Virus record (IMG/VR): IMGVR_UViG_3300036770_005540
Coordinates: 1-64,000 of that record
Reading direction: 5' to 3' (one strand)
From: an uncultured virus (IMG/VR IMGVR_UViG_3300036770_005540)
Taxonomy: Duplodnaviria; Heunggongvirae; Uroviricota; Caudoviricetes
Length of the DNA: 64,000 bases
Of the stretch, positions 17,924-57,883 are shown in pieces. The notes beneath the pieces were generated by a model. The model did not search any database, was not told where the DNA came from, and was given only the letters and a program-made list of their open reading frames with translations. Position 1 is the first letter of the stretch; the number at the start of each line of letters is the position of its first letter. A program made the translations under genes and the position numbers.

Positions 17924-19189
17924 GTCCCGCACACTTTTGGTCTATGGGGTTGGCAAACGCCTGTTCGCTTACGGCAACGACGAACACTCGTTCGCACCCT
18001 CCAAATAGCGTCCCGATGAGCGCAAGAGCAACGCTGAACAACACCACGCCCAACCATAGCACAGGTCAAATACACGTCCCGTTTGCCGAAGTGGTGCGCC
18101 ACAAACCTGAGTGTGTCGCAGAAATAGTCGCACTCAACGCCATACACGCCCCGTTTGCCATATCAGTCGTGTATCGCAGTCGCAACACGCCGTTTCACTA
18201 CGCCCCGTTAGGCGCATAGCATTGTGTGTTGTTACGCATACGCATACGAAGTTGCCCATCACCTAGCCCCGTAGCGCATAGCGTTTCGCATAGCGCAGCG
18301 CAGTCGCATACGCATACGCCCCGTATTCATTAGTCTTTTCGTGTGTGTCGCATACGCATTTCGTATCGCTTGTCGCATCTAGCCCCGTGAGCCATAGCCA
18401 TAGCAACACGCAGGCACACATACACGTCCCGTATGCGCCGTGCGCTGGTGTGTGTGAGCATACGCATAGCCAACCCATAGCCACTATGCCCCGTATGTCG
18501 CATACGCATTCAGATACACACGCCCCGTTGAGTTTTTCGCAGGCTTCACGGGTGACCTACGGGCATACCCTACCTATGACAACACCACACACCACCACGC
18601 ATCTAGTCCCGTAGGTAGTGATAGGTATTTGTAATCAGTAGTCACGCACCATAGCAAGCCCATACCCCTACCCCTATGTGTGTCGCATCTAGCCCCGTAA
18701 GCACTACACCATAGGGATACCCCCACACCACGCCTACCGTGTGTGGCTTCATCTAGCCCCGTGACGCATACAACCTTTCGTAAAGGACTTGATACTTAGC
18801 CGCCCCGTGTTTTCGCAAGGCTCACGGGTGGCTTACGGGTGCTTACACCTACCTACACCACTGCCTACACCACACACGCATCTAGCCCCGTAGGCACTTG
18901 ACTACACGCCACCTGCCCATAACCACATTTGGTCGTTGCTGAACATAGGCCCCGTAGTCGCCTATCGCAGTCAAGCGATACGACATCTCGCTTATGAGAG
19001 TGCTTCACTATGCCCCGTATGGCGTGTGAGAGACTGAACACGGCGCAAGAGCCGTGTGTCTACTTGCGCCCCGCACAACATAGTCGCAGAACAGCACTTG
19101 TAGACAAACGATAATCAGCCCCGTACAAAACACGGATTTTGAGGGTTTTTTCAGCGTTTTTAGTGCTGTACTCAGCGCACTCAGCCCCG
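17924..19189 (+). repeat. Non-coding array of 21 co-oriented GYCCCG hexamers (about 63-bp mean spacing) in purine/pyrimidine-alternating sequence
   Basis: Copies at 17924, 18010, 18076, 18148, 18202, 18266, 18318, 18382, 18426, 18488, 18522, 18606, 18692, 18756, 18802, 18885, 18949, 19012, 19068, 19118 and 19184, often as ATCTAGCCCCGT. No credible ORF. Confidence 0.88.
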
Positions 19190-19230
19190 TGCCATAATAA
19201 AAGAACCCGATTACACCAAAAAGGACTTGT

Positions 19231-22200
19231 GTGACGCAACTTGGCCCCGAAAACAAAGACATTTACGAAGTTGATGTAAAAGACGGCAACCGTCTAGGTC
19301 GTCGCTTGTCTCGGGGCTTGAGGTCACTATCCAGAAGTGTCGGAAACACGGCAAGGTCGGGACTCGTTGTGGAACCATTTGACCCAAACGCATACGACGG
19401 TGATGGTGACGGCATAATCCAAGACGGAACACAGTGGGAACGCCCCGCAGTGCTAAGAAGTCAGTCAATACCAAACGCAGACTTGCCCAAAACACCTGAT
19501 GCCGGGACTGAAACAGAAACAGAAAAGACACAAAAAGAGACAAGAAAACTCGTTGACGCAGCAGAGCGAGCCGGGACTCGGATTTCGCCAGAACGCTCAC
19601 GGGTGACTACGGGTGGACTACGCAGTACGACAGTAACGCCGTTGCTTGACCCAGAGTGGCGAAGAACAGCAACGCCCCGAGAACTCGCTGAAATAATCGT
19701 GCCAGACACGCTTGATGAAGCAGACGCACTAGCAGAACAGTTGGCAGTGCCCCGAAGTGCTTATGAAACCGAAGCAGACTACCAAAACGCACTAAAACTA
19801 CTCAGAAGAACTCGGGACGCAGAAAGAGCCGCATCCAAGCGTCGTATGGAAGCACTTATCGCGATTTACGAAAAAAGACACCCCAAAACAACCAAAACAG
19901 GCTCGTTTGAGCGGGACCTAAGAGATGACCCTATTGAGTGGGACAAAAACCTCAAAAAAATCTTTGGCGACCAAAATGAGTGGGGCGAACAACTCGGGGC
20001 AACAAACAAACGGAGCGTTGAGCGGGCTCAAATAGAGTTTTTGGTCGCTTACAGAACAGAACTGGAACGGGACCCAGTAACAAACAAAACACTATTGGAC
20101 ATAATAAATGAAATAGAAAACGCCTATCGAAACGGAGTGAGGCTCACGCACGGGGCTTTTTGGAGAGACAGTACTCACATACCAATCAGTCCCGTTGAGT
20201 ATGTGCTTGCTCGTTTGTTTATGGAACACTCAAACCACCCACAAGACCCGTTGTTCATAACCGGCATTCGGGACGTAGTAACGCCGTCGGGCGACACCGA
20301 CGCAGTTATCAGATGGGCGACTGAGTTCCTTGATGGATACCAAAGGTTCTACGAAGCACGAAAGGGGTCCCGTGCTCTTTCCAAGCAACAAATAAAGAAC
20401 AGAATAGAAGTAGCAATGAACTCTGGGTCAAGAGGAGGCTTTTTCGGGACCCTTTTTGGTAGGGCTATTCCAAACGAACAATACATACAAACACACCAAA
20501 TGGTGGAAAGCAACGACCCTCGGGACCTTGCGCTACTACGGGCACTGTTACAAAGAACGCTAGAACAAAACCCTGAGTTTTTGGAAGCAGTAAGGAAGTT
20601 TGGACACCCGCCTCTCTATGTCCCGCACCGCGCTTACCATTTCATTGCCCCGCCAAGAGAGTTCCAAGAAAAGTTTTTGCTTGTTCCAGAAAGCGAACTA
20701 ACGCCATCTGAACTGCGGGACAAACTTATTTCAGGAAAAGAATACGAAAAAGGTTTGCTTGAAGCAATCCGCGCCCAAGAACTCGGAAAAGGAGATGTCA
20801 CGTTCGGGGCAGGTGGACTACTTGGTGTACGGGCGGGACTTGGTGGACAGTATTCATTTCCTGATGGGCAAATAACACTTACCCCAATGCAACTGAGAAA
20901 CACAATACTCAACCGCCCCGAGGCTGATGAAAACATAATCAACATGACCGGGACACAAGGCGCATACACGCTTGTTGGAGAACCAGCAATTCTCATACAC
21001 GAATTTGGCCATCACGTTGATTGGACTTTGCGCAACACCTTGTACGGGGCCTTGTGGGAGAGACGCAAGAGGGCTATTCGTGACTTTGCCAACGACCCAA
21101 ATAGAAATACAAGCCCCGACGTGTTCAAAGATTTTGTTCGTCAGCAGATAGTAGATTTTCGTGACGAACTAAAAGGCTTCACGGGCTTGGTAGACCCCGA
21201 TAACCCAAGCAAGTTGTCCGGGGCATCAGATAGACAAAACATTCATAGAAGTCGCTTGAAGTACTTAGGAGTGAACGTCCCCAGACAAGGCCCCGACGAA
21301 GTTCCTGTTGGTAGTCGTCTGTTTGACCCATCAACGCTAACCGACGAAGAACTAGATGACCAAATAAGGGAAATAGCGGGGCAACTAGATGAAATTCACG
21401 GAATGGTCGACATGCTGACTGGTCGCCAGCAAATACGACGAATGAAAGAAAACGGCACGTGGCAACGTGGCATCCACCCATCAGAAGGAGACGTAGGCGA
21501 TTACGCCATAAACAGCCCCGAACCTTATGTAACTACGCCATACGGAAATAGCAGTGCGATTGAGCGTTTTGCTGAAATAACAGCGTTTGTTTTGTCCCGC
21601 AACGGACAAAAACAGCCTGTTGCGGTGAATAACGCCGCCGTGCGTCTATGGGCTCGGATACTTGGCATAGATGTAGAACCACAAGATGTTGTTTCTCAGT
21701 CCCGTCGCAAAAGACTTCCTTCGGGTGGCTACTCAGACGAAATGGAAGACATAACAAACCGCATACTCTCAGACATAAAGATTGTTGCGCCAGATGTTCA
21801 GAGGCAGCCAGACGGTCACCGCCCCGGTTTGCAATCATCAACGTCATCATCAGATTTTCGTTTTGACCCAGATGAACGAAGCATGTTGCAGTCCCGTAGC
21901 AACATAGGCTTGGACACAGACCAACGCCTGTACGCACAAGATGAGCCGATAGGCGTTATGGATTTCATGAATAGGCCCCGTGTCTACTCAATAGGCGACC
22001 ATCATTTCTACGATAACGAAGTTCGCTATGGCTCGCAGATGAGTTTTGCGATGAGAAAGCGACTTGGAGAACAAGCGGGACGCAGATACATCAACAGAAA
22101 CAGACCCCATCACGGAGATATGGTGCGGGCGATTTCAGCAACGCAGTTTGGACTGTTTATTGACGACCTTCCAACTTACGACACAACTACATCGGGGCAA

Positions 22201-25200
22201 ATGAACGTTCTTCGTGGACTTGTTACGGGCAGAATAGCCAAACTACGCCCCGAAGAACGCTCACAAATAGAAGAAGCACTTAGAGACGCAACGAGAATAC
22301 ACTCGGCTATTTACGGCGCAACTCCGAACAAACGGGACACATACAGAGCGATAAAGACTGATAGAAAAACATTTTTGGAAAGCGTTGCCGTTGGCGACGA
22401 AATACCTATGCCGATTACGGCCTTCAGCCCCGATAAGCCCGACAACAACGAGAATGTGATTATCCGACTAGAAAAAGGCGCAAAAACCATAGATGTCGGC
22501 AACAGGCAAGTTCTTACTCAGGGCAATTTTGAGGTCGTTTCGGTTGATGACGACGGGACCCGTGTCATTGCCACGTTGCGCCATAAGGAAACATTTGACC
22601 CACGCCACGACGCACTTAGACCCGTGGACAAGTTTTCGGATAAGCCGAACGCAATGCGCAAGATGGGCAGTCCAATGCCCCGATACACCAGAGACGAACA
22701 ACAAAAGATGGAAGTTGATTTGGAGCGCAGACAGGACAAAGACAAAGTGTTTGGCTTGCGCTCAACAACGGGTATGGTCCCGGAGGATTTGAGCGAAAAA
22801 GAGATTGACGATTTCCTTGATGAAGAAGTGAACCTGTTTGAGGAAAAGCGGGTCCCGAAAGAAGTAGTTGATAAAGCGAAAAAGAATTTGCGTGATTACT
22901 TGCAGAGAAGTGCTATTCGTCGTTTTGTCAAGACAAAGCAAGCCCTTATCCAAAAGTACGGGGCCGATAAGCCGTGGGAAAGAGACGCAGACGCAATACG
23001 CAAATGGAGAGCAATCGACAGGGAAACCGCCGCACGGGTAAGCACAGTCCTGAGACGCAGCCTAAGAAACGCAATTGACAATAGAACTCGGGACATGATG
23101 GATGCCGACACGGGCGAATTGTTTGACGACGCAAAGGTTGGCTTGTCCAGAGTACTGGACAGGTTCAACTATTACATAAACGACTACGAAGGTATTGACT
23201 TGTCAGCGGGGCAGATTAGGCATCTTCTCGAAACTGGTCAGTTCGTTTACTGGAGACGGGACGACGAACTGTTCCCAACTGAGAAAATGGTAATCAATTT
23301 GCCAATCAACTCACCAGAAATGGCAGAACTCAAACAGGTTTTGGAGACGACACTTCCAGCATTGGAGGCGATGTCTCGGGCTTACTTGCTCGATGGTTCG
23401 GTCGACGTCCCGAATGCCAACAGAAGCATTTGGGAAGACCCAAAGATTGGCGGAAAGATAATCCTCAACAACGAGGAGTTGAACATAGTCCCGAACGGTA
23501 AGGGCGTTTATGCAATATTCCAGCCAGATGGTTCTGAAAGCATAAGCCTTGTTGCGAACGCATCTTTTGGAGTTGGCAGCCAACGACCCAATGGAACAAC
23601 TGGTTTTACTCGCAAAATAGGGCTAGACCGGGACGGGAATATTGTCATTGGTCATGACCGTTTCTGGATGGGCAGCAAGGACAGAGAACGCAAAGGTTCT
23701 GGTGTGGCGACGCTATTCAACCAGCATTCGTTTTTGTGGTGGAAGCAGCATGAGGGCACTGAGGTTGTGGTCCCGAATGCCGTGAGTGACGGCGTGATTG
23801 TGTGGCCACGTCAAGGTTTCCGTCGGATTGGTCAAGCACGACGGGACGCATTGGAAGAACAAGAAGGATTTTTCCATATGGTCAGGGCTTTGGTGCTGAA
23901 ATCAAAACGACAAGAACTGTTTGACGCAAACCGTCCCGAACGCGGGGGAACGGCAGAATACGAAGCGGCGCAGTTGGTGAAATACGTTGATGATGTTGAT
24001 AGTAAATACGGACTTGATAATCCAGAGTTTGCAAAACGCCTAGTGAACTGGCTTGCGCTTGCTCGCACAGCAAATGATAATCAAAGCCCCGAAACAGACC
24101 TCATCAACATATTGGCAAACATTATTGAGCCAAGAGAATTGAACGACAGCCAACGCCTGAGTTGGGCTGAACTGTTTGGACAAGTAGCGAAAAGCAATAG
24201 TTTCAGCATGTTTTTGAATCGGGACGAAAGCGACAATGACTACCTACCATCATTCGTCATCCCAGACCCGACTGACGACCTAGACCCGATGGAAGTACAA
24301 CGCCAAATAGAGCGTGGCAGATTGTTGCGCCAAGAGTTGGAGAACTCACAGGCCCCGAGCGAAGTATCAAGAGATATTTACTTCCCAGAAGATGACAAGG
24401 AAATTTCTAGCAACCGACTGCTTGGGGAAAGACAAGCGGGACGCCTATTTGCAGCCGTGAACATAGACGAAGCGACCAGTTCGGATACACGAACTTTTTC
24501 CTCAGCACGGGCATTCATGTATGCGAGAGAGGGTTCTGGCTTCAACGTCCCGCCAAGACTTCTCACACGGGTGGAAACAGAGGAACGAATTAGCAGGGGT
24601 GAAATACCCCTCTATGGTTGGATTGACCTCAATCGTGTCGGCATTTACACGAGCGACAGAAACAACATGCAAGAACTTTACGAGCAACGAGTTCGCAACA
24701 ATATGGTCGGACTGGCGGGGCCGAGTGAAGTCATGCGTTTCACCGATAAGCCATTTGACCACATTGACGATTTCCACGACACGAACAATCCAGTTACAGA
24801 CCCAGCAGCAGTTCGCAGTGGAATGCTTGGCTACCTAGCCCCGTGGGCTCGTGTTTACAAAGGTAAGCGAAATGCTTTGCCAGAAATGTTTTGGGGCAAC
24901 AGCACGGAGATTTCAATCGCAAGAGACATGCGGGACAGGGGCGATTTTGATGGTTTGATGGCTTTGCTTGTCAATAAGTTTGGCGAGGAGGTAGATAACT
25001 CGGTGATGGGCACGGACGTTGCGTTAGTAGAAACCCTAGATGGATTTTTGCCAAATGGAAACTCCGAAACAGCACAGACGGGACGCCGAGTGTTGGGGGC
25101 ATTGTTCCAAATTGAAAATAATCGAAGAATGGCCGAAGCAGGTATCTCAACGGCAATTAGGCAAGATAAGATACAAGGACTTAGAGATGGCTTGCTTGCC

Positions 25201-29298: not shown

Positions 29299-29460
29299 AT
29301 ACTGAAAAACGCCCTGAGATTATCACTCAGTTTCTCAATAGTTTTAGCGACCAAGAGAAGAATGACTTGATGGACTTGGAGGATGAAGCACGGGAAGTTT
29401 CCGCACTTCGTTCCAAACTCCTCAAGAAAAACCTTACAGGCAATAATGAGGTAGAACAAG

Positions 29461-30532: not shown

Positions 30533-30546
30533 AATCCCCTTTGTGC

Positions 30547-30598: not shown

Positions 30599-30605
30599 TC
30601 GGACC

Positions 30606-31061: not shown

Positions 31062-31123
31062 TACCTTGTTTCTCGCTTCCTTGTTGTTTCGTTTAGCGGG
31101 AGTGAATACCCCCGACACCTAAT

Positions 31124-48372: not shown

Positions 48373-48747
48373 CTACTTGCCAGCAACCAGATACTCGGTT
48401 GCCATTGTCCACAGATGCTCTGCTGAGTCATAGAAAGATTGCTCAACATCTTCAAGCCTCATTGACGGAATGATTCTGACAACAGGCAAAGACTCAATGC
48501 CCTGCTCGTGGAATATGTTCCAACCGCCATCAGTAGCCCACACTTCAAGCCGTGCGTAAGACTGCTCGTCGTAGTAGTTGCGCCGAATGACGACACGGAT
48601 TTTGGTACGGAAGTGCTTGTGAATCCCACTAGGACCGAAAGCACGAATCTCGGTGTAATACCAAGACTGTTGGTGATTGCGGAATGTCACATCGTTGCCA
48701 TCTTCGGTGACGGTGTGATACCCCATGTGATTTGTGGTTGTAATCAT
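48373..48747 (-). CDS. Hypothetical cassette protein
   Basis: Promoter at 48755. Confidence 0.65.
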   Translation of the reverse strand: MITTTNHMGYHTVTEDGNDVTFRNHQQSWYYTEIRAFGPSGIHKHFRTKIRVVIRRNYYDEQSYARLEVWATDGGWNIFHEQGIESLPVVRIIPSMRLEDVEQSFYDSAEHLWTMATEYLVAGK

Positions 48748-48774
48748 ACTTGGACCTTACAGGCAATAATCACT

Positions 48775-51256
48775 TTAGACAACCTCTTCGTATGTATCAA
48801 AGCAGTCGTATGCCTCAAAGTATTCGGTTCGGTTGGCGAGCAGTCCCGAGATGCGAGCCAGCAGGGCTGCGATTATCTTGTCGGACTCCTTGTTCCAAGC
48901 ATCTTGGCTGTCTGCGTGTTCGCAGTTTGGCACGGCGAATGCGATGCTGTAGGCGTGATTGTATTTAGTCATGTCAGGACCTCAACTTCAAGTGCTTTGT
49001 GGGATTGATTGCCATTCATGAACTCTTCGTTATAGCGGTCCCAGAACTCGGGGGCATCTTCATCTATGGGGTATGTGAAGTCACCGCCATAGTCCTTCAC
49101 CCACTCGCCATTCTTGTGGACGTGCTGATACTTATCTTCAAGTGTCATCTTGTCCCATCCGTCTGGCAGGGTCTTTAGCGACCAATACTCGGCTCGGTCG
49201 CTTCTCCACAGGTTGTTTTCGCTCACCTCTTCGGTGATGAAGCGCAGCACTATTTCGCTCACTTCACAGCCTCGTTTGCCAGAAACTCACTTGTTAGACC
49301 CTCGATGGCTTCCTTGACGCCATCGGCGGTGAAGTGCCTGTAATCCTTAGCATCTTCTTCGCTCACCTCAACGGCGTCCCATGGTCTGTCCCAATCAAGT
49401 AGTTCAATCTCAACGATTGGGGCGGTTGAGTACGCACCCTCGTCGCTGAAACTAATGGTCGGGTCGTCGTCGTCCTCGCACTCGTAAAGGTACTGAACGT
49501 TGATTTCAACTGTCTGATGAATGATGTATTTCTTCATGCGTAGACCTTACAGGCAATAATGGTTTATGACAACGGCTGAACGTCGTGCCTCGTACACCAA
49601 CCGTCATAGCAGTCGTCGCATAGAAGCACATTTTCCTCATACACGCGTTTGCCATCTTCGGTGGCCCCGGTGGGGGCTAGATTCCAGTGTTCGCCTAGGT
49701 CAACTTCGCACCAGTGGCAGGTTCGGTTCATGACTTACCCTCCCATTTCAACCGCTCATCGCTTCCCTCTTCTGTCCAGAATGGGAACCCGACGAACTCG
49801 TTAAAGATGCAGAAGTCGTCGTACTCGGTGCTTGGCTCTTCGCCCCACGATGTACCGCCAGTAATACGCAACTCACGATTGCCATCAAGTGTGATGCCCG
49901 ATACGTCACGATTGCCATCACAGCCGTACACAAGGTCTATTGCGTCAGAGATGCGTTCCTTGACACGGCGTTGTAGGTCATCAGACCATTCCTCGTCGGT
50001 AAAGCCGAAGAAACCGCAGTCCTCCATGCGACCCAAGTCAGTTTCGGTGATTACCAAGCGCTCAAGACGCTTACGGCAGTCTTCTATTGACTCCCGAATC
50101 TCAACGGTCGCAAGTATTAGGTCAGCACCCATTTCAGATGACTTCCCCATCAACAGTGGTCGTGAGACCGTGAGTGTGTTCGGAATGCATCTGCTGGTAC
50201 TCGGGATAGGTGTTCCCAATAATTTCGTGCGGGTTGGACTCTTCGTAGCACTCCAGATTCAAAGAACCATCGTCGTTGAACGATAGGACAACGTTGTAGA
50301 TGGTGTCTTTAGTGCCGTTGGAGCGGACGATGTTCACTTCTGCGACGCAGGGAGCATCATCCCAGTCAATAAGCGGAATGTCTGCAATTGGGATGTTTAG
50401 TTCGTGTTTCTTCATACCTGCAACTTACAGGCAATAATTAGTTTAAACAACCTCTTGGGTTTCGGCCGTCATCAGGTATAGGCGAATGTCCAGAAGAAGG
50501 TCGGTCATTTCAGACGAAGACACAAGGTCCCTACCCGAAATGTCGGCAATTGCCTTATCCACGAGTTTCAAGGCTTCGCCGATTTCCGGGACCCCGACAC
50601 TTGTGCTATCCACTGCGGTGGTGGAAGACTCAACCATGGTATCCATTATACAAACTTACACAGTATGGCGTGAGTATCTTCGCCATTCCACTCGACATCA
50701 AAGCCCTCGTTGCGTAGTGCGGACACGATAATGTGCGCCCCGCCGTTGTCGTGATAAATGTATTGGTAATCATTGCGAGCATTGCCACTATCTCTGGCAA
50801 AGGCAAGGTAATTACCCTGGCCACCATACGTCCATGCAACAGGTGTGCCTGGTTTGTAGTTGGGTTCCATGTCGGCTGCTGCACATGTACGGCAACAATC
50901 CATGCGATTTAGTTGGGTATAGACCCCAAGTTTTGCCACTGCTCTCCATGCAGCATTCCAGCGTTGTCGCTGAGTTCTCACAGCAGTTCCTCCAAGGCAC
51001 TATCCCAATCAGTGTCGTTTTCGCCAAGGGTATTGACGAAGTAGTACATCTTGCTGAACCTCATTGACTGCTTGTGAAAGAAGTTGTAAAGTTCTTGCGA
51101 ACCCTCGCCGTACTTATCGCAAAGTTGGGCGAACTCCTCCAGAATGGCGTCCCTCTCCTCTTCGGGAAGGTTGTTGAAAGACTCAACCACTTCGCTCCAG
51201 ACCTTCGCCTGATAAGCCTCGTGGAGGAGGTTGATGAATTCGGTGTCGTTTTCCAT
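48775..51256 (-). other. Run of about 9 small acidic hypothetical ORFs in promoter-headed cassettes
   Basis: ORFs 48775-48972, 48969-49262, 49259-49537, 49728-about 50130, 50134-50415, 50443-50646, 50646-50981 and 50978-51256, with overlapping or adjacent stop/start codons. Confidence 0.6.
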
Positions 51257-51470
51257 GTGTTGCACCTTACAGGCAATAATTACTTATTCCAACCCCCATG
51301 TGCGCATCCGCGCGCCATGGAAGACTCATCCTACAGGCATTAATGGGTTAACGCTCGCGAGCCCCGGATATACCAGACGTGCTGACCGTCACAGACATTG
51401 CAGGTTGTCAAACTACGTGGCTATCCACTACGGTGGTGGAAGACAGTTATAACCAATAAGGAGAAACCAC

Positions 51471-51866
51471 ATGAAACCACGGCTAGTTAGTACGCCATCA
51501 ACAGAAGGGGCGCTGCACACAATTGCATATGCCCGTAATAAAGATGGCCGAATTGACCTTGATGCATACAAGGGCCTAACTGGGACTATTGAATCAAACA
51601 ACCTAAAGATTGATGTAAAAATCAACAACGCTCGAGTTCGTTACGGGCATCTCGATTTGAATGTCAGTCCGATGTCCGGGGCTGGCGAGGTATGGGTTGA
51701 GCGAAAGAATATTGAAATCAACAACGACCCTGCGGCCAAGGCCCCCGTGGCAAAGATGAAAACTCGCAAAATTGACGAATCAAAACCGGAAAACGCGTTT
51801 CCGAAGAACGACATCAAGGAAATGATTCGGATGATGATTCAGGAAGAGCGCCAAAAGGCCGTCTAA
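51471..51866 (+). CDS. Hypothetical protein
   Basis: Strong TAAGGAG ribosome-binding site. Confidence 0.7.
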   Translation: MKPRLVSTPSTEGALHTIAYARNKDGRIDLDAYKGLTGTIESNNLKIDVKINNARVRYGHLDLNVSPMSGAGEVWVERKNIEINNDPAAKAPVAKMKTRKIDESKPENAFPKNDIKEMIRMMIQEERQKAV

Positions 51867-52121
51867 TAACGGCCCGGCCGCAAGTCTTCCCGAAGGTATA
51901 CCACATCTCCGTCATCTTTGGATTCGATGGCGGAAGATGTGGGAACCTCATCTGTGTCTGCCTTCACAGGGGCCTCTTCTGATAATTCTTCAGAACTTTC
52001 TTCTTCCGCCGCCGGCTGCGGCTCAAAATGAATTCGCTCAAGTTTTTGGTTGGACCCGAGGGCCCCGTGATTGTTCCCGGCCATGTTGTCTTACCTCATT
52101 ATTGCCTGTAACGTGTTTGCC

Positions 52122-52556
52122 ATGCTAAATCTAACAGATGACTACATAGACAGTTTACCTGCGGACACACGACGCATCCCTGATGTTGAGCGTGGCCTAT
52201 ACGTATTACAGACGTGGCAGAAGAATGGGGCCAGTGGCTCACCTGCTTCATGGCTCAAAAATTACATGATTCGCTCAGAGGGTTTGATGTGGATAAATCA
52301 AAACATCATCCCAAAACTAGGCGTCGCCATCGTGGCCGAGGAAAAGACGGAAAAACGCAAGGACAAGTACGCCAAGTTGGAGAAACTTGCGCTGGATAAC
52401 CTGTATCACGAATTCACGACCCAGCAACTCGCTGATGAGTCGGGGCTCGGCGCACAAACCATTAGCAAGTGGGCAAAGACCACTGGTTACTTCCGAGTAA
52501 TAGGGCGTGGCAAGTGGGAAGCCCGCAATCCAAAAGATGACCGCAAAAACGCCTAG
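52122..52556 (+). CDS. Hypothetical protein with C-terminal winged-HTH-like segment
   Basis: FTTQQLADESGLGAQTISKW. Cassette promoter at 52097. Confidence 0.65.
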   Translation: MLNLTDDYIDSLPADTRRIPDVERGLYVLQTWQKNGASGSPASWLKNYMIRSEGLMWINQNIIPKLGVAIVAEEKTEKRKDKYAKLEKLALDNLYHEFTTQQLADESGLGAQTISKWAKTTGYFRVIGRGKWEARNPKDDRKNA

Positions 52557-52593
52557 GGTTGTCTTAACTCATTATTGCCTGTAAGGTACAAGT

Positions 52594-53316
52594 ATGACAA
52601 CTACAAACACCACCACCAAACTCCCCGAGTGCTGGCAAGCACTTGAGGATGTACTTACCAACAACATTGACCGAGTCATCTTGTTTGGTCCCCCAGGGAC
52701 AGGCAAGACGTACGCAGGCATGAATTTCGGCAACGTGGGTAACGGCTCGTTCCGCATCACCTGCACCGAGGACATGACCAACCTGAACGTAGACGGCGCT
52801 TTCATGCCGACTAGTGACGGCAAGGCTTTCAAGTGGTATGAGGGTTCTGCTCTTAAGGCATGGCAGGCAGGCGGTCGTCTCGTCGTGGACGAGATTGACA
52901 AGGCTGGCTCCGACGTGTTCGCCACGCTACTGAACTTCCTTGACTCTCCTGAGTCTGCATCGTGGGAGCATCCTGAGAACGGACAGATTATCCGTCCCTC
53001 CAATGGATTCTCCGCAGTGATGACCACCAACGTTGAGGACATGGACGAATTGCCCGAAGCGTTGGCCGACCGATTCCCTGTTCGGATTCGCATCAACCAG
53101 CCACATCCCAATGCACTGCGTCGTCTCTCACGAGACCTGCGTGAGGTTGCGGTTAACTACGCCGACGCTGGACGAGACCGAATTTCACTGCGAACGTTCA
53201 TGGCCTTTGACAATCTCCGAAACTCAATGGGCGACGAACGTGCCAGCAAGATTGTCTTTGGGCATCGTGCTGACGGAATCATGGATGCTCTCAGGGTTAA
53301 TGCGGTGGCATCGTGA
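52594..53316 (+). CDS. MoxR/CbbQ/CobS-like AAA+ ATPase
   Basis: Walker A GPPGTGKT, Walker B VVDEID, TTN and ALADRF. Confidence 0.88.
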   Translation: MTTTNTTTKLPECWQALEDVLTNNIDRVILFGPPGTGKTYAGMNFGNVGNGSFRITCTEDMTNLNVDGAFMPTSDGKAFKWYEGSALKAWQAGGRLVVDEIDKAGSDVFATLLNFLDSPESASWEHPENGQIIRPSNGFSAVMTTNVEDMDELPEALADRFPVRIRINQPHPNALRRLSRDLREVAVNYADAGRDRISLRTFMAFDNLRNSMGDERASKIVFGHRADGIMDALRVNAVAS

Positions 53317-54866
53317 CCACAAAAACCACGATTGAACCACACGCACTAACACGGCGTGATAGACCGACACTGCGCTGGAGCGTTGAAGAAGTCATCGCCA
53401 AGCGTGGATACGCCAAGACCGACATCATCGGGCGCAAGATATATGCGCCTGCTGGATTGTCGGAACTTGAGCGTGTCGTACGTGCGCACGAGTTGATGCA
53501 TGCCAGAATCACACCTGCCGAAGAAATTGGTGATTGGATTAAACGTGGCGTTGCGTCAAAAGATTCAATCTATGCAGTTGAAGAAGTGCGTGTTAACTAC
53601 GCAATTCAAAAGGCTGGCTTTGATTTAAACGAACTGACCGACGGCAACGAAGATGCTGACGGCGAACTTGCAGTAATCCAAAACAATTGGGAGGGTGCCG
53701 TTCGTTTTGCGGTCGCTACCGCTGGCACTGCTGGCGGTAAACGATTTCTCGTCGGCGTGCGTCGCCAATCAAAACATTGGGCGAATGCTCTTCAACGAAT
53801 CCAAAAACATATTTGGAAACAAATTGAGGGTGCCGACACTGGTCGTATCGGCCGTAAGCGTGTAGTGAGGGAACCTTTGTTCTCAACCGAGGTACATAAG
53901 TACATCGGGCTTGCACCTGCTGGCTTTGCGTGGACCGAGCGTTGGGCTGAGTACCTTGACCGACTTGGTGCGATGCAACCGCCTGAAAAGAATCCGACCA
54001 CGGCCAAGAAAACAAAGAAATCAAGCACCGAGGCCGAGGGTAAAGAAGATGAATCCGACAAGTCCGAGTCCGAGTCTGGCGACAAAACTGATTCTGAAGA
54101 ATCAACAGAAATTGCCAATAAAGGTTCTGAGGATGACTTTGAAGAACGTATGCGTCGGATGAATCCGCTCTCATACAGCCGTGGTAGCGAAGAGTGGAGC
54201 AAACTCCTATGGGGCAAGACAAAATTGTCTCGTGTCTCAAAGGGTGCTCTTGGCAAGAAGCGCTATGCGATGCAATACGGTCGCAATCCACGACGCATCG
54301 GGCGACTCTACACTGACCCACAACGTCGTGTGTTTGACCACGAGCGTCGTGCCAAGGGTGGAATTGTCCTGATTGACGGTTCTGGCTCTATGGCACTTGA
54401 CCGTGATGACGTTCTCAAGATTCTGCAAGTGGCACCAGGTGCGACTGTCGCAATCTATTCCGACATGGATGAGGGTGAGGGCCGTTTGCCAAACATCCAC
54501 ATTCTCGCAAAAGACGGAAAATGTGTTGAGGAAAAAGACATGCCAGATTTTGGCGCTGGCAACGGCGTTGACTTCCCTGCTCTTGATTGGGCGATTAAGG
54601 AACGCAAGAAGAAGGAACCTGTCGTTTGGGTAACTGATGGCGGTGTGTGCGTTGCCAACAGCGGATTTAATCATTCGCTAGCGGTGCAGTGCATCAATCA
54701 CGCCAAGCGCCATAAAGTAATCTGCGTTGACCACGTTGATTCGGCAATCAAACAATTGCAGGCTCTGAACAACGGACAGACTGTCCGAGTCAAGTACCCT
54801 CAGTACTTCACTCAAGTCATCAACCACTTGGGCGGTATGGACGAAGAACAGGTAGTCAAGAAGTAA
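53313..54866 (+). CDS. HExxH metallopeptidase-like + vWA domain protein (partner of the AAA ATPase)
   Basis: AHELMH...EE.RVN, an acidic linker, MIDAS DGSGS and TDG. Confidence 0.8.
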   Translation: MTTKTTIEPHALTRRDRPTLRWSVEEVIAKRGYAKTDIIGRKIYAPAGLSELERVVRAHELMHARITPAEEIGDWIKRGVASKDSIYAVEEVRVNYAIQKAGFDLNELTDGNEDADGELAVIQNNWEGAVRFAVATAGTAGGKRFLVGVRRQSKHWANALQRIQKHIWKQIEGADTGRIGRKRVVREPLFSTEVHKYIGLAPAGFAWTERWAEYLDRLGAMQPPEKNPTTAKKTKKSSTEAEGKEDESDKSESESGDKTDSEESTEIANKGSEDDFEERMRRMNPLSYSRGSEEWSKLLWGKTKLSRVSKGALGKKRYAMQYGRNPRRIGRLYTDPQRRVFDHERRAKGGIVLIDGSGSMALDRDDVLKILQVAPGATVAIYSDMDEGEGRLPNIHILAKDGKCVEEKDMPDFGAGNGVDFPALDWAIKERKKKEPVVWVTDGGVCVANSGFNHSLAVQCINHAKRHKVICVDHVDSAIKQLQALNNGQTVRVKYPQYFTQVINHLGGMDEEQVVKK

Positions 54867-54920
54867 TGAAGAAGTCAGCCAGCGCACGTTTAGGTTGGTG
54901 TTCACGTGCGCTGGCACCAA

Positions 54921-55007
54921 AAGACGGTGTCACCGGCAGTGACCCAAGCCAGCAAATATGCTGGCCATGCGTCCTAGCGCACTTCCCGCTGTCGGTGGCA
55001 CTGTCTT
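54921..55007 (+). ncRNA. Candidate three-way-junction structured RNA
   Basis: 21-bp stem 54921-54941/54987-55007 whose four non-Watson-Crick positions are all G-U, enclosing two short hairpins. Confidence 0.6.
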
Positions 55008-55035
55008 GCAATTACTAAACGAAAGGAAGACAATC

Positions 55036-55245
55036 ATGAATGGCAAGACTCTTGCAGGAGAGAGACGCGGCCAGGCGGCTCAGCGCAGAAACGTCAATTT
55101 CGCGTTGACGATGTCGCAGTTCGAAGAACTTCAAGACATGGCCATGATGGCGGACATGCAGATATCCGAATACATCAGATACGCGATTTTCGGGGCCGCC
55201 GCTGCCAGGCGGCCGCGCAACCAGAGGAGCGCGCCGCAGCAATGA
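55036..55245 (+). CDS. Ribbon-helix-helix-like protein
   Basis: GAAAGGAAG ribosome-binding site; NVNFALT...L...A....M.ISEYIR. Confidence 0.6.
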   Translation: MNGKTLAGERRGQAAQRRNVNFALTMSQFEELQDMAMMADMQISEYIRYAIFGAAAARRPRNQRSAPQQ

Positions 55246-55329
55246 GAAGTTCTAAAAAGTTTTTTTTCTTCTGGTTCACCCAGTTGATGTCGCGCGTCAT
55301 TTCACCATACGGTGGTGGAAAGCAACGTC

Positions 55330-55575
55330 CTAACTCCGGCGCATGAACGCGCGGTCCCACACCCGTAGGAAGTTGAATCCCAAAATCAAACTCGTACAAT
55401 TAACCCAAGAAAGTTTCCATGAGATTGCATCGATTGACCAGAAGAGCCGCACCGCCAGGTAGAGGGCCAAAGAATAAACCAGGCTTGAGAACACGAAGTT
55501 CAAGAAACCAGACAAGATTTGCTGTTTTGCCTGTTCCTGGAATTTCCGGAACTCCTCCATCTCCGGATGGCTCAC
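55330..55575 (-). CDS. Small membrane protein
   Basis: Two hydrophobic segments. GTGA overlap with the upstream gene. Confidence 0.5.
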   Translation of the reverse strand: MSHPEMEEFRKFQEQAKQQILSGFLNFVFSSLVYSLALYLAVRLFWSIDAISWKLSWVNCTSLILGFNFLRVWDRAFMRRS

Positions 55576-55952
55576 TGGGAAACCTGAGAATTTTTGCGAA
55601 CAATCTGGTGAACGCGTTGGCGAGAAAGTTCAAACTCATCAGCAATAAAGCGAAGAGATTTTCCGCCGCGATGCAAGTCCAATATCTTGGAGTTTCTGTC
55701 GGAGTTCGTAGCCGGCCCTGGGCGCAGCGGGCCCCATTGCCAGTCGCGAATTTGCTCGAGTCGCTGAATCTTTTCCTGGCTCAATTGCCCCTTGCGGCGA
55801 CGCTGTCGAAGATACCCAACCCAAGAACCCAGCGGAACGGGGTTGCCATCGACCTCCTCGATGTGATTGGCCGGGACTCGACAGTGGTCTTCCCGCGCGA
55901 CGAAGTTATTAAGGGCTGTAATTGTTGTGTTAAAACGGGTAACGTTGTCCAT
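55572..55952 (-). CDS. Helicase-associated (HA) domain + HTH protein
   Basis: H..VP...LG.WV...R.....G.LS.E.I..LE...W, then GKSLRFIADEFELSRQRVHQI. Confidence 0.75.
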   Translation of the reverse strand: MDNVTRFNTTITALNNFVAREDHCRVPANHIEEVDGNPVPLGSWVGYLRQRRRKGQLSQEKIQRLEQIRDWQWGPLRPGPATNSDRNSKILDLHRGGKSLRFIADEFELSRQRVHQIVRKNSQVSQ

Positions 55953-56074
55953 GTCGAAGACAATAGCAAATGCATTTAAGCCTCAAGTTGATATTTTGAA
56001 ACTTTAATTAGAAATAGTTTTTGACAAACCTTTACGGTGGTGGAAAGCAACTCGTTGAGTGGTACTATCTAGGG

Positions 56075-56458
56075 ATGGAAGACCACGACGAACAAGATTT
56101 GGCTAGATTTGTCGAAAGAGTCAGAGAAGATATGGAGTTTGGGGAAACAGATGGCGGCCCCAATCGAATCATTGCTTCATGCCAAGACGTCGAGTCGGAC
56201 ATATACCTGCTGATAATGGCCGTGCCGCGCGAGTCCCTGTCCGATGGCGTGGGCCCCGAGTTATTCCAGACACCAGATGAACATAAGTTTCTGGCCTGCC
56301 TAAACGAGGAAGTTCTTTGGGCAAAAGCAGATGAAATAAGTGAAGAAAATATTTTCTACACAAGCCAGGAAAAAAATGACCTGATGGCTGAATTTATTGC
56401 GGACTTTTTGCCGCCGCTATTCGAGCGCGCTCGAGAAATGATTCCGCTAGATATTTAA
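56075..56458 (+). CDS. Hypothetical acidic protein
   Basis: ATG 6 nt after TACTAT. Confidence 0.55.
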   Translation: MEDHDEQDLARFVERVREDMEFGETDGGPNRIIASCQDVESDIYLLIMAVPRESLSDGVGPELFQTPDEHKFLACLNEEVLWAKADEISEENIFYTSQEKNDLMAEFIADFLPPLFERAREMIPLDI

Positions 56459-56970
56459 GCGCCTTGGTGGTGGAAAGGTTGGGGACTGCCGCCAGAAGAA
56501 CCCAACCACCGAAGAAACACACTTCGTGGCGGCAGCCCCGCTACGCGACCAAGGGGGAAAGGGGGGGAACACCCTGGCCACGCAATTATCGAAAGTACCA
56601 CAGAGATTTGTTGTCCCAGTGTAACTTTTAAAAATTTTGTCGAAGTTGCATGTTTTGCCGCCGGGTGCTGCTAGCGTGAGCCCCGTTCCGCGTTTCGCGT
56701 TTCCTCCCTGGGGCAAGGGGCGCGGAACAACAAAATACTTCTGCGCAGGAAGACCAACCATCAAAAACAACACCCAAAACTGGGTGCCGGCGGAGCCTTG
56801 CCAAAAATCAAAAGTTTTAAGCAAAGGTTCCCCCGGACCCCCTCCAAAGTTCAACACTCTAAGAAGTGTTCAATTATGAAGGGCCGTAAAAACAACAAAA
56901 GAAACTTCGGTTCATTTACGTCCTCTATCTCATACGGTGGTGGAAGACCGAGGTTGCTATAAATACAGAA

Positions 56971-57345
56971 ATGGTGTATCTTGAGGTGATGATGACGACT
57001 AAGCGTTTCAGACTCACCAAGGCTGAGAAACAAGAAAAAGCCATCTCTGACCGGAAGAAAGAAGAACTCGTTTCTCCCGAAGATATTTTGGCCGTTTTTA
57101 ACCACTGGGTCGAAACCCACAAGAAAGACGCGCGCCGCAAACCTGTCCTTGATGCAAAGCGCCGCAGATTGCTAGCCGTTGCCATCTACGACTACAGCGT
57201 CGATGACTGCATGGCGGCCATAGACGGCTGTGCCAACTCCCACTTCCACATGGGACAGAACAAGCAGGGAAAGGTCTACAACTCCCTGGAACTGATATTC
57301 CGCTCTGCAGAGTACATCGAGCGATTTATTGGCTACAACGAATGA
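56971..57345 (+). CDS. Phage replication-initiator C-terminal-like protein
   Basis: VF.HW...AIDGC..S.FHMG.N....YN.LELIFR pattern. Confidence 0.5.
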   Translation: MVYLEVMMTTKRFRLTKAEKQEKAISDRKKEELVSPEDILAVFNHWVETHKKDARRKPVLDAKRRRLLAVAIYDYSVDDCMAAIDGCANSHFHMGQNKQGKVYNSLELIFRSAEYIERFIGYNE

Positions 57346-57421
57346 GGACCGGGGCTATCGTGGTTGCCATGCTTGCTTTCTACGCAGCACTGGCGGTGGC
57401 GGATAGGAGAAAGGGCCGGCG

Positions 57422-57883
57422 ATGACAGAAGAAGAAATCGGCAAATTTATTAAAACCTTGTACTACACGTACGACCGGGTACTTGTCCCCAAGGAAGTCA
57501 AAGAGTTCAGCACGGCATGGAAGCCATACGTGGGCGAGTTTGACTATGAACTCGCCCAACAATTATTGCCCAACATTTGTATGGGTAAAGAATTTCCCCC
57601 ACGGCCATGGGAGGTTAGAGTTTTCCTCGTAAATTACACCAAACAAATTACCCCTGCTCCATCACCCCAAGAAGCGTGGGGACAGTACCAAGAGATAATG
57701 GCAGCAGTCACGAACGGGACTTCCGCAAACGTACGGATACATGATGCGTTGGTTGCGACCCTAAAGGCCATGGGGGGTATAGGGCTCAACAACCAGTTCG
57801 ACGCCAAGCGATTTGAAGAACTTTACAAGGATAAGGTTAACCAATGGATGAAGAACACGTACTGGATGGGCGATAAGCAATGA
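57422..57883 (+). CDS. Possible helicase loader/inhibitor-like protein
   Basis: AW...FPP.P...P...EAW pattern, adjacent to the replication-like gene. Confidence 0.4.
   Translation: MTEEEIGKFIKTLYYTYDRVLVPKEVKEFSTAWKPYVGEFDYELAQQLLPNICMGKEFPPRPWEVRVFLVNYTKQITPAPSPQEAWGQYQEIMAAVTNGTSANVRIHDALVATLKAMGGIGLNNQFDAKRFEELYKDKVNQWMKNTYWMGDKQ

What the first reader, a model, noticed from the sequence alone, without database searches (positions are those of the whole stretch)
17924..57720. Quasi-regular GYCCCG/CGGGRC hexamer lattice written over coding DNA, with a sharp left edge and rightward decay
Seen: the hexamer starts abruptly at 17924. It recurs about every 63 bp in the non-coding block, then continues in both orientations through the giant ORF at roughly 60-120 bp spacing (by eye about 18 copies in 19.24-20.53 kb and about 18 in 20.6-22.0 kb, against roughly 1 per kb expected for four hexamers). 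It thins out through the cassette region. I spotted essentially none in 1-17.8 kb. Even spacing inside a 10-kb ORF implies selection on the DNA itself. Inference: these are binding sites for a protein that coats, pulls or protects the DNA near a physical genome end (first-injected or first-packaged DNA), or a spreading partition or nucleoid-like signal.
Basis: partly seen in the sequence, partly recalled or inferred. Interest (0 to 1): 0.82.

Follow-up and report, generated by a model that had tools for sequence, protein, structure and literature searches.

The report
Evenly spaced hexamer lattice marking one phage genome compartment
A six-base DNA word is written about 200 times, at strikingly even and graded intervals, over one 40-kb compartment of a large phage genome and is absent from the rest, which suggests an undescribed way of marking DNA that appears most exposed to host restriction enzymes.

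Summary
GYCCCG/CGGGRC occurs 199 times between window 17924 and 57720. It occurs 0 times in the other 96.4 kb of the 136-kb phage contig, where a codon-aware control expects 31. In the 10-kb ORF there are 84 sites against 11 expected, in all frames and both orientations. Spacing is far more regular than Poisson (z = -7.4) and widens smoothly from 63 to about 430 bp.

The same word forms a 37-40 kb compartment, starting just upstream of the homologous giant ORF, in relatives that share only 27-47% identity in that ORF.

The sites depend on position, not on the gene. A helicase gene carries 9-10 sites at conserved codons when it lies inside the compartment. It carries 0 (or 2 relics) when it lies outside, mostly through synonymous changes.

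The compartment also shows general depletion of 4-bp palindromes and has its own conserved promoter-like elements.

Best reading (about 0.4): these are recognition sites of a family-conserved DNA-binding protein that decorates the early, restriction-exposed, probably first-entering DNA. A physical genome end at 17.86 kb is not shown, because contigs bridge it at equal depth. I found no known system that fits.

The parts
17924..57720 (.). The GYCCCG compartment: 199 sites (120 as GYCCCG on +, 79 as CGGGRC on +)
   Evidence: all sites of the 136-kb contig lie here and there are none elsewhere; these are the only 6-mers with this property.
17848..17935 (+). Conserved boundary element: TTGGATAAATCTAAC (resembles an extended -10), then about 65 nt, then GAAAAAGTCCCGC, which carries the first site of the compartment
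   Evidence: the same element with the first site is at the compartment start in G001, G003 and G004. In G005 and G006 the site is inverted. Reading it as a promoter is my inference.
17924..19189 (+). Non-coding array of 21 sites, all in one orientation, mean spacing 63 bp, local consensus about CATCTAGCCCCGTA, top strand C-rich
   Evidence: GC skew is -0.17 to -0.25. No Rfam match. Related arrays occur in L033, L034, L040, L035, L036 and L041.
19231..29298 (+). Giant ORF (3355 aa) carrying 84 sites (41 sense, 43 antisense); spacing widens from about 78 to about 200 bp
   Evidence: No Pfam, PHROG or PDB match at default cut-offs. Two invariant HExxH motifs in 14 aligned homologues. Weak C-terminal HTH.
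29299..57720 (.). Rest of the compartment: 94 sites over SSB, an HDAC-like gene, about 60 small unknown ORFs and CobS/CobT-like genes
   Evidence: Sites fall in all frames and both orientations relative to the ORFs. Only 3 of 48 small ORFs match any PHROG.
36145..36240 (-). Example of a promoter-like element (CCTTTCCGCCACCGTAAGACATAGAGA) followed by a convergent site pair 44 bp apart, upstream of the ORF start at 36138. Four more lie at about 39079, 40443, 41950 and 45060
   Evidence: Equivalent elements occur only inside the compartment in G004 and G006, and a different one (13 copies) in G003.
15408..17378 (-). SNF2-family helicase gene just outside the compartment, with 0 sites: the natural experiment
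   Evidence: Orthologues inside the compartment carry 9-10 sites at conserved alignment columns.
1..17923 (.). Site-free left flank (RNR, primase, WhiB-like, speD-like, SNF2)
57721..64000 (.). Site-free right flank (HslV-like peptidase, phosphoesterase, lysin-like gene)

Best explanation
GYCCCG is the recognition word of a sequence-specific DNA-binding protein conserved in this family of large, probably actinobacterial, myoviruses. The sites form a lattice over exactly one genome compartment of about 40 kb. That compartment starts at a conserved element upstream of the giant ORF, holds the many small unknown genes and its own promoter-like elements, and appears more exposed to host restriction enzymes than the rest of the genome. 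It is therefore most likely the early, first-entering DNA.

The protein would decorate this DNA every 60-400 bp, forming a nucleoprotein array at the start of infection. The array would hold, organise or shield the leading DNA and act at the early promoter-like elements. Sites elsewhere are removed by selection because binding there would interfere with later functions.

Shown: DNA-level selection, strict compartment limits, regular and graded spacing, dependence on position, conservation across distant relatives, co-located palindrome depletion, and sites beside promoter-like elements.

Inferred: that a protein binds the sites, which protein it is, that the compartment enters first, and what the array does.
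For: (1) The sites are selected in place and removed out of place. SNF2 orthologues inside the compartment in G003-G006 (72-83% aa identity to G001) carry 9-10 sites, largely at the same nine alignment columns and mostly in the same orientation (G003 and G004 share all nine), about 73 codons apart. The G001 copy outside has 0; at five of the nine columns the residues are unchanged and only synonymous codons differ (e.g. GCC CCG to GCG CCG; ACG GGA CAC to ACT GGA CAC). A closer relative with the same gene order (L033) keeps 2 relics. The primase gene has 4-5 conserved sites inside (G005, G006) and 0 outside (G001, G002, G004).

(2) The same word marks a 37-40 kb compartment starting just upstream of the giant ORF in G002-G006 and in 15 of 16 metagenome loci that were tabulated. 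Giant-ORF identity in these is 27-77% and G+C is 43-53%. A more distant cultured myovirus (major capsid protein about 44% identical) has 63 GCCCCG scattered genome-wide, so it has no lattice.

(3) Spacing is regular in every genome: z = -7.4, -2.7, -2.2, -3.7 and -4.2 against an inhomogeneous Poisson process. Orientation tends to alternate (runs-test z 1.7-2.9). This fits a footprint or coverage logic.

(4) 4-bp palindromes (GATC and AGCT excluded) have O/E of about 0.25-0.58 in 3-kb windows inside and about 0.8-1.0 outside in G001, with sharp edges. The same is seen in relatives. The effect is positional: primase observed/shuffled is 0.86-1.12 outside and 0.52-0.75 inside. Only motifs in the first-injected region deciding sensitivity to restriction is documented for Autographiviridae (PMC12455610, abstract read).

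(5) Conserved promoter-like elements occur only inside the compartment, with a site 12-25 nt away or a convergent pair. There are 22 '+-' pairs against 5 '-+' pairs at 50 bp or less, clustering near 33 and 44 bp, which is three and four helical turns.

(6) Palindrome avoidance is relaxed within about 13 bp of a site (O/E 0.77-0.80 against 0.5-0.6 further away).
Against: - No binding protein is identified. The giant ORF's C-terminal HTH is weak in this genome (E 0.0055), and the one more distant homologue scanned (P0013) carries an ADP-ribosyltransferase domain at its C-terminus instead.
- A physical end at the dense edge is not seen. Contigs of 4 of 4 runs bridge it at equal depth, so the compartment is not a doubled terminal repeat.
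- Density profiles differ between lineages (dense at the left edge, or peaked at the centre). One entry direction does not explain this.
- The within-compartment correlation of site density with palindrome depletion is significant in only 2 of 5 genomes (G003 rho -0.80, G004 -0.70; G001, G005 and G006 not significant).
- Near-complete absence outside (0 of 31 expected) is as strict as for GATC and AGCT. That looks more like avoidance of cleavage than of mere binding.
- CCGG is totally absent from G004-G006, even next to sites, so sites do not visibly shield an overlapping restriction word.
- The relaxed avoidance near sites may only reflect reduced codon freedom there.
- CobT-like genes inside the compartment have 0 sites in 3 of 3 genomes. 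One 4.4-kb fragment of a giant ORF (L044) has none.
- Exceptions outside the compartment: G002 has 1 site and L033 has 2.
Confidence: 0.4

Rival explanations
1. The sites are cut or nick sites of a phage nuclease or terminase, and the compartment is the zone in which virion DNA ends fall. This could be a headful series from a pac-like array, or sequence-assisted end cutting. Site density and palindrome depletion would both scale with the chance of lying near a DNA end.
For: - Absence outside is as strict as for true restriction words (0 against 31 expected; GATC and AGCT are 0 genome-wide), as expected if a stray site is cut.
- One architecture has a sharp edge with decay, and two genomes show a small final bump at 36-40 kb.
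- The array of 21 same-oriented repeats resembles the repeats of pac sites. The phage 9g pac repeats have the core SRYCRCGGGRCG, which contains CGGGRC (PMC5567051, passages read).
- TerL is of the Terminase_6/Terminase_3 type.
Against: - TerL lies about 54 kb from the array.
- A 40-kb zone is about 27% of the genome, far wider than the usual headful scatter (that scatter figure is recalled).
- Contig depth is equal inside and outside, with no excess from redundancy.
- Centre-peaked profiles in relatives do not fit a one-directional series.
- Sites beside promoter-like elements and at conserved codons are not predicted.
- Contig ends that cluster upstream of the giant ORF fall at different nucleotides inside low-complexity repeats, so they are assembly breaks.
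Confidence: 0.15
2. The lattice is purely a transcription-control device. It would be a dense version of the multi-site operator or 'stoperator' systems of actinophages. A phage repressor binds the sites and blocks RNA polymerase throughout the early compartment (early shut-off), and sites are excluded from genes of other temporal classes.
For: - Sites or convergent pairs lie next to each conserved promoter-like element, and these elements occur only inside the compartment.
- Exclusion from the rest of the genome is explained.
- Actinophage precedent: repressors that stop elongation at many asymmetric sites spread over the genome (PMC9283540, abstract read).
- The phage has actinophage affinities: capsid hits to Gordonia, Mycobacterium and Arthrobacter phages, and a WhiB-like gene.
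Against: - There is no orientation bias relative to transcription: 41 sense and 43 antisense in the giant ORF, 36 and 52 in the small ORFs.
- Most sites are intragenic.
- 84 roadblocks in one gene, with smoothly graded 63-200 bp spacing, far exceed what repression needs.
- It does not explain why palindrome depletion shares the same limits.
Confidence: 0.15
3. GYCCCG is the target of a restriction-like, modification or self/non-self system, of the host or the phage. It is avoided in most of the genome. In the compartment it is modified, or otherwise used as a mark or decoy.
For: - Strict avoidance outside, alongside total avoidance of GATC and AGCT.
- Short asymmetric words with one degenerate position are typical of Type IIS/IIG/III and BREX targets (recalled).
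- A PAPS-reductase gene flanked by two ParB_N genes (DndC/DndB-like by domain only) is present.
Against: - The word is conserved across relatives whose absent palindromes differ (CCGG, ACGT, TCGA vary). That argues against one host enzyme.
- No adenine is fixed on either strand, so the usual m6A enzymes of Type III, MmeI-like or BREX systems do not fit (this is reasoning from recalled biochemistry).
- No methyltransferase was found among the ORFs scanned. ORFs under about 100 aa outside the compartment were not scanned.
- Fivefold enrichment with even spacing is not explained by tolerance alone.
Confidence: 0.12
4. The sites are Chi-like: signals that tame a RecBCD/AddAB/AdnAB-type exonuclease entering from DNA ends, or that promote recombination of redundant ends.
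For: - Short G/C-rich asymmetric word.
- Decay away from a presumed end in one architecture.
- All 21 array sites are in one orientation.
- The phage has a Rad52-like annealing protein and a PD-(D/E)XK exonuclease.
Against: - Inside genes both orientations are equally common and tend to alternate.
- Chi-like sites elsewhere would be harmless, yet they are removed.
- Even spacing is not predicted.
- No end has been shown near the sites.
Confidence: 0.06
5. The pattern is a by-product of codon or amino-acid usage, base composition, a dispersed repeat family, or assembly chimerism.
For: The compartment is 4-8% richer in G+C than the rest.
Against: - Synonymous and codon-order shuffles give 11 and 9 sites against 84 observed.
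- Neighbouring words are not enriched.
- Flanks are not conserved.
- Independent contigs from 4 runs bridge the left compartment boundary.
- The pattern recurs in divergent relatives.
Confidence: 0.01

Closest known systems
Stoperators of cluster A mycobacteriophages (and the conserved inverted repeats of phiC31; the latter is recalled)
   Same: Many copies of a short recognition site for one phage protein, spread over a large part of an actinophage genome, including sites next to early promoters. The stoperator site is asymmetric and is read by a monomer (PMC9283540, abstract read).
   Different: Here the word is 6 bp, not 12-17 bp (the stoperator length is recalled). There are about 200 copies, not about 20-35 (recalled). 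Most are intragenic and in both orientations. Spacing is even and graded. The sites are limited to one compartment, excluded elsewhere, and co-located with restriction-site depletion.
First-step-transfer or leading region of phages (T5; T7-like Autographiviridae)
   Same: A defined part of the genome that carries small early genes and is specifically poor in restriction sites. T5's stop signal has DnaA boxes (bioRxiv 10.1101/866236, abstract and two sections read). Two relatives here have three TTATCCACA boxes beside the first site. The location of restriction motifs in the leading region decides sensitivity (PMC12455610, abstract read).
   Different: No terminal position or terminal repeat has been shown here. 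The compartment is about 27% of the genome. No graded lattice of a positive signal appears in the parts of those papers that I read.
Repeat arrays of pac sites (P1 hexamers, recalled; phage 9g repeats with core SRYCRCGGGRCG, PMC5567051 passages read)
   Same: Short repeats in one orientation in a non-coding block. The 9g core happens to contain CGGGRC.
   Different: There are 21 repeats plus 178 further sites over 38 kb of coding DNA. The array is far from the terminase gene, and no cut site is known.
Chromosome-scale word systems (Chi, KOPS, matS, parS, DNA uptake sequences; all recalled)
   Same: Short words whose distribution along the DNA, rather than any one copy, carries the function. 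Some mark one domain (matS) or are evenly spread (uptake sequences).
   Different: Those words are 8-16 bp, far sparser, either strand-biased or palindromic, and not excluded with this strictness from the rest of the replicon. None shows a smooth change of spacing from 63 to 430 bp.

Membership tests
Stoperator-type multi-operator system | Sites oriented in one direction relative to transcription | tested here: not met
   41 sense and 43 antisense in the giant ORF; 36 same and 52 opposite in the small ORFs.
Stoperator-type multi-operator system | Sites mainly in short intergenic gaps | tested here: not met
   84 sites lie inside one ORF. Only 6 of 94 sites to its right are intergenic by my crude ORF calls.
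Stoperator-type multi-operator system | Bound by a phage repressor that stops elongation | not testable with these tools
   No binding or transcript data. Candidate HTH proteins are only listed.
Restriction-target avoidance | Word under-represented relative to codon-aware expectation | tested here: inconclusive
   Met outside the compartment (0 against 31.1 +/- 4.9). The opposite holds inside (84 against 11.2 in the giant ORF).
T5-type first-step-transfer region | Lies at a genome end inside a long terminal repeat | tested here: not met
   Contigs of 4 of 4 runs bridge the left edge, and contig depths inside and outside are equal (17.8/18.8; 34.8/36.3; about 26/27). Contigs cannot show ends, so only the doubled repeat is excluded.
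T5-type first-step-transfer region | Fewer restriction sites than the rest of the genome | tested here: met
   4-bp palindrome O/E is 0.25-0.54 inside and 0.7-1.0 outside. The effect is positional in the primase block.
T5-type first-step-transfer region | Cluster of DnaA boxes at the stop signal | tested here: inconclusive
   Three TTATCCACA boxes (two in G005) beside the first site in G005 and G006. In G001, 8 of 9 TTRTCCACA boxes lie inside the compartment but are scattered.
Chi-like sites | Orientation bias relative to the DNA end or replication direction | tested here: not met
   Only the non-coding array is uniform. Elsewhere orientations are balanced and tend to alternate.
parS/ParB partition or spreading site | Palindromic site of about 16 bp, in few copies | tested here: not met
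   The word is a 6-bp asymmetric sequence in 199 copies. ParB_N genes exist but lie beside a PAPS-reductase gene 57 kb away.
pac site | Repeats next to the terminase cut, usually in or near the small-terminase gene | tested here: inconclusive
   An array is present. TerL is about 54 kb away. The cut site is unknown because no raw reads were available.

The most novel reading that the evidence does not exclude
The lattice is a physical track written into the DNA. It would be a graded series of binding steps whose local spacing (63 bp to over 400 bp) is tuned to what each stretch of the genome needs while it passes into the cell. Cytoplasmic or co-injected protein binding at evenly spaced sites would act as a Brownian ratchet, holdfast or shield on the DNA that enters first and waits longest. 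Even spacing is the optimum for such a ratchet, and denser spacing is needed where the opposing force or the exposure is greatest. The genome would then carry a positional code for its own delivery, laid over coding sequence and rewritten by selection whenever a gene moves in or out of the compartment.
Probability: 0.12. Interest if true: 0.95.

Novelty: categorically new. Interest (0 to 1): 0.86.

Why it matters
If a protein really reads this lattice, it is a new way for a virus to partition its genome: a six-base word laid over genes at set intervals in one compartment and removed from the rest. The natural experiment is clear evidence of position-dependent selection on synonymous sites in a phage: the same helicase gene has nine conserved sites inside the compartment and none outside.

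The finding links three things usually studied apart: restriction avoidance, early-gene organisation and DNA handling at entry. It also gives a simple sequence test for which part of an uncultured phage genome is exposed first.

It yields direct experiments. The 1.3-kb array is a ready-made bait for the unknown binding protein.

Practically, it shows that motif-location maps, not genome-wide counts, are needed to read phage-host conflicts from metagenomes.

Tried and rejected
- Codon or amino-acid explanation: rejected by synonymous and codon-order shuffles.
- Longer hidden repeat: rejected, because flanks are unconserved inside ORFs. Tandem Repeats Finder lists only short, low-scoring repeats in the block.
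- Known RNA in the array: none in Rfam at E <= 1.
- Identity of the giant ORF: no Pfam, PHROG or PDB hit. No match in cultured phages by DNA or protein. Cluster look-up gave no names.
- Terminus by reads: only Logan contigs were on offer, no raw reads. The laid contigs show no starts or ends.
- Contig ends clustering 0.4-1.0 kb upstream of the giant ORF in 8 loci (L049 set aside, its match starts mid-protein) looked like a terminus. They fall at different bases in C-rich low-complexity repeats, so I read them as assembly breaks.
- The G001 contig ends split a tail-fibre module, so they are not taken as genome ends.
- 'The density peak sits next to the SNF2 gene': dropped, because L046 has SNF2 at the sparse edge.
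- 'TGTTGACA promoters mark the outside': dropped. There are only 2 copies in the window, against 3.3 expected.
- 'GTYRAC absent inside': wrong. 13 of 35 window copies lie inside.
- Helical phasing of neighbouring sites: none.
- Earlier notes of this scan: three look-ups returned nothing.
- Literature for the word or for such a lattice: five searches found only the 9g pac repeat.

Full report
**What is there**

The window is part of a phage genome. PHROG and Pfam scans find ribonucleotide reductase, primase, an SNF2-family helicase, SSB, CobS/CobT-like genes and a lysin-like gene.

The assembly held for the window is one 72.9-kb contig. It is part of a 136,198-nt virus contig, G001, classed as linear and 91% complete. 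I rebuilt G001 from fetched pieces. G001 coordinate = window coordinate + 61,605.

G001 encodes tail sheath and tube, portal, large terminase and major capsid protein, so it is a myovirus. The nearest cultured capsid proteins are about 44% identical, in Gordonia phages, and 1010 records match, many of them Mycobacterium, Arthrobacter and Microbacterium phages. With a WhiB-like gene, this suggests an actinobacterial host. That is an inference.

**Check of the observation**

GYCCCG/CGGGRC occurs 199 times between 17924 and 57720. It does not occur in 1-17923, in 57721-64000, or in the rest of G001.

The word is precisely GYCCCG:
- The other 14 NNCCCG words occur 3-22 times in either compartment. 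The two forms of the motif occur 128 and 71 times inside and 0 outside.
- Of all 6-mers, these are the only two that are absent from the 96.4 kb outside and occur at least 8 times inside.

In the 3355-codon ORF there are 84 sites. Synonymous shuffles give 11.2 +/- 3.1 (maximum 22 of 1000) and codon-order shuffles give 8.8. The sites fall in all three frames and both orientations.

Outside the compartment, 77 ORFs of at least 100 aa (85.7 kb) have 0 sites against 31.1 +/- 4.9 expected. Markov models of order 1-4 give 18-59.

Spacing:
- Mean spacing is 63, 78, 110, 202, 195 and 434 bp going rightward, with coefficients of variation 0.22, 0.31, 0.27, 0.42, 0.65 and 1.05.
- Against an inhomogeneous Poisson process with the same smoothed density, the successive-gap statistic is 0.63 against 1.36 +/- 0.10 (z = -7.4).

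**Relatives**

The giant ORF has no Pfam, PHROG or PDB match. It has 16 homologues of 29-100% identity. An alignment of 14 of them shows two invariant HExxH motifs. Some carry C-terminal HTH domains or an ADP-ribosyltransferase domain. In this genome the HTH is weak.

DNA of relatives came from 9 virus loci and 20 metagenome loci, some of them duplicates. I fetched five virus contigs in full (G002-G006).

In all five, GYCCCG is confined to one compartment:
- It starts with a single site 0.2-0.8 kb upstream of the giant ORF.
- Where both ends are visible it runs 37-40 kb. In G003 it spans 2320-39526 and is followed by 8.5 kb without a site.
- DNA outside it has no site, except for one in G002.

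Of the 16 non-duplicate metagenome loci tabulated, 15 carry the word in or after the giant ORF. One 4.4-kb fragment (L044) has none. Upstream DNA further than 1.5 kb from the ORF holds 0 sites in 8.0 kb (L046), 0 in 7.7 kb (L048) and 2 in 3.4 kb (L033).

Two density profiles exist:
- **Edge type.** This window, L033, L034, L040, L035, L036, L041 and L047 are densest at a non-coding array and at the ORF start (L047, cut within the ORF, is densest at its upstream end).
- **Centre type.** G003-G006, L038, L046, L048, L049 and others rise from the edge to a peak 16-20 kb in, which is the compartment centre, and then fall. G001 has a secondary maximum at the same place.

Spacing is regular in every genome (z = -2.2 to -7.4). 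Orientation tends to alternate (z = 1.7-2.9).

A more distant cultured relative has 63 GCCCCG scattered over its whole 88.7-kb genome. The lattice therefore belongs to the giant-ORF family.

**The natural experiment**

Gene order differs between relatives.

SNF2 helicase gene:
- It lies just outside the compartment here (15408-17378) and has 0 sites.
- In G003-G006 it lies inside and has 9-10 sites, about 73 codons apart, largely at the same nine alignment columns and mostly in the same orientation; G003 and G004 share all nine, G005 and G006 about six to eight.
- At five of the nine columns the G001 protein keeps the same residues but uses other codons, for example RAPLT as GCG CCG instead of GCC CCG, and KTGHT as ACT GGA CAC instead of ACG GGA CAC; at the other four columns the amino acids differ too.
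- L033 shares G001's gene order and is 92% identical in this protein. It retains 2 sites.
- L046 also has the gene outside, with 0 sites.

Primase block: 0 sites where it lies outside (G001, G002, G004), and 4-5 sites at conserved columns where it lies inside (G005, G006).

The sites therefore follow position and not the gene. They are kept by selection inside the compartment and lost outside it.

**What else marks the compartment**

- GATC and AGCT are absent from the whole 136 kb (about 375 and 326 expected). GATC is also absent from G002-G006 and AGCT from G002-G004 (one copy in G006, 23 in G005).
- Inside the compartment nearly every other 4-bp palindrome is depleted (O/E 0.25-0.54). Outside, O/E is 0.7-1.0.
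- In 3-kb windows of G001, O/E drops from about 0.8-1.0 to 0.28 at the left edge, stays at 0.44-0.58 (with a dip to 0.24) for 33 kb, and returns to 0.84-1.09.
- Relatives show the same depletion. It is graded with site density in G003 and G004 (rho -0.80 and -0.70 within the compartment) but not significantly in G001, G005 or G006.
- The depletion is positional. Primase observed/shuffled is 0.86-1.12 outside and 0.52-0.75 inside. One caveat is that G006 lacks ACGT, TCGA and CCGG everywhere. The relocated SNF2 of G001 is still at 0.66.

I read this as stronger exposure to Type II restriction. In known cases that marks the first-entering region (PMC12455610, abstract).

The compartment also has its own conserved elements:
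- The first site sits in a conserved boundary element, TTGGATAAATCTAAC, then about 65 nt, then GAAAAAGTCCCGC.
- Five copies of CCTTTCCRCCACCGT...ATAGAGA lie upstream of minus-strand ORFs, each followed by a site.
- Equivalents occur in G004 and G006. A different element, TTGTCT-N17-TATACT close to the start codon, occurs in 13 copies in G003.
- Close convergent pairs (22 against 5 divergent at 50 bp or less) cluster near 33 and 44 bp.
- 8 of 9 TTRTCCACA boxes of G001 lie inside the compartment. G006 has three and G005 two beside the first site.
- Only 3 of 48 small ORFs match any PHROG.

**Physical end**

Only assembled contigs of public runs were available. Contigs of all four runs laid cross 17.86 kb. 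Contig depths inside and outside are equal. The compartment is therefore not a doubled terminal repeat, and no end is shown there. An end cannot be excluded without raw reads.

**How it most likely works**

The data call for a sequence-specific reader conserved across the family, acting on double-stranded DNA without regard to orientation, and with a local range that makes even spacing useful.

I favour (0.4) a DNA-binding protein that decorates the early, restriction-exposed compartment and also acts at its promoter-like elements. Relaxed palindrome avoidance within about 13 bp of sites fits occupancy during exposure, but it could also reflect reduced codon freedom.

Three points tell against this reading: the strictness of exclusion outside, which resembles cleavage avoidance; the two density profiles; and the lack of an identified reader.

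Rivals are terminase or nuclease cut sites in a zone of genome ends (0.15), a purely regulatory stoperator-like lattice (0.15), a modification or restriction mark (0.12), and Chi-like sites (0.06). A compositional artefact is refuted.

**Comparison and novelty**

Membership tests for stoperators, Chi, parS, pac sites and a T5-type terminal first-step region each fail or are inconclusive on a defining feature (see the table of tests). Five literature searches found no report of the word as a lattice. The only hit was the 9g pac repeat, which contains CGGGRC.

I rate the finding as real, highly unusual, and not assignable to a known kind of system.

Noticed in passing
whole window, G001, and G002-G006: GATC and AGCT are completely absent from the 136-kb genome (about 375 and 326 expected). 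GATC is absent from all five relatives. CCGG, ACGT and TCGA are each absent from some of them. This points to heavy and lineage-specific Type II restriction pressure.
   Followed up: partly
window 8614, 14697, 17630, 17848 (+): The motif GGATAAATCTAAC(C)AGA recurs just upstream of rightward genes in the left flank and at the compartment boundary, and is also present in relatives. It resembles an extended -10 promoter. It may mark a second promoter class.
   Followed up: partly
window 25427, 36086, 36108, 41842, 44952, 44972, 48405, 52296: DnaA-box-like TTRTCCACA: 8 of the 9 copies in the 136-kb genome lie inside the compartment, two of them as close pairs. G006 has three exact boxes and G005 two beside the first GYCCCG site. 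This recalls the DnaA boxes of the T5 injection-stop region.
   Followed up: partly
window 17982; G004 17937 and 17971; G006 9359 and 9431: GAAC-N4-GTTC inverted repeats (the pattern of Gram-positive and actinobacterial SOS boxes, recalled) lie in the non-coding region at the compartment start.
   Followed up: no
window 18540-18570 and 18815-18845; relatives about 150-200 bp upstream of the giant ORF: A conserved CACGGGTGAnnTACGGG element and a CATAAT/GATAAT -10-like box precede the giant ORF in all lineages. The upstream region is C-rich on the top strand, with CCCCTA-like repeats in relatives (G-rich, possibly quadruplex-prone on the other strand).
   Followed up: no
window 19231-29298: The giant ORF (3355 aa) has two invariant HExxH motifs and a variable C-terminus (HTH domains or an ADP-ribosyltransferase in homologues). 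It looks like a 'polyvalent' multi-domain protein, yet it sits behind a host-type -10 box in the early-like compartment.
   Followed up: partly
G001 34600-43719 (outside the window; L053): A second giant ORF (3039 aa) with a DEDD/RNase_T exonuclease domain lies in the head module. Next to it are 2206-aa and 1225-aa ORFs and an 877-aa protein with sigma-70 region 4 and a zeta-toxin-like kinase domain.
   Followed up: partly
G001 19594-22062 (outside the window; L004, L055): A PAPS-reductase-domain gene is flanked by two ParB_N-domain genes near the terminase. The pair resembles DndC/DndB or IbrA/IbrB by domain and may modify DNA.
   Followed up: no
window 14968-15411 and 31594-32559: A speD-like S-adenosylmethionine decarboxylase and a histone-deacetylase-family (acetylpolyamine amidohydrolase-like) gene suggest phage control of polyamines.
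   Followed up: no
window 53313-54866 and its orthologues in G003 and G006: The CobT-like gene lies inside the compartment but has no GYCCCG site in any of three genomes. It is a conserved hole in the lattice.
   Followed up: no
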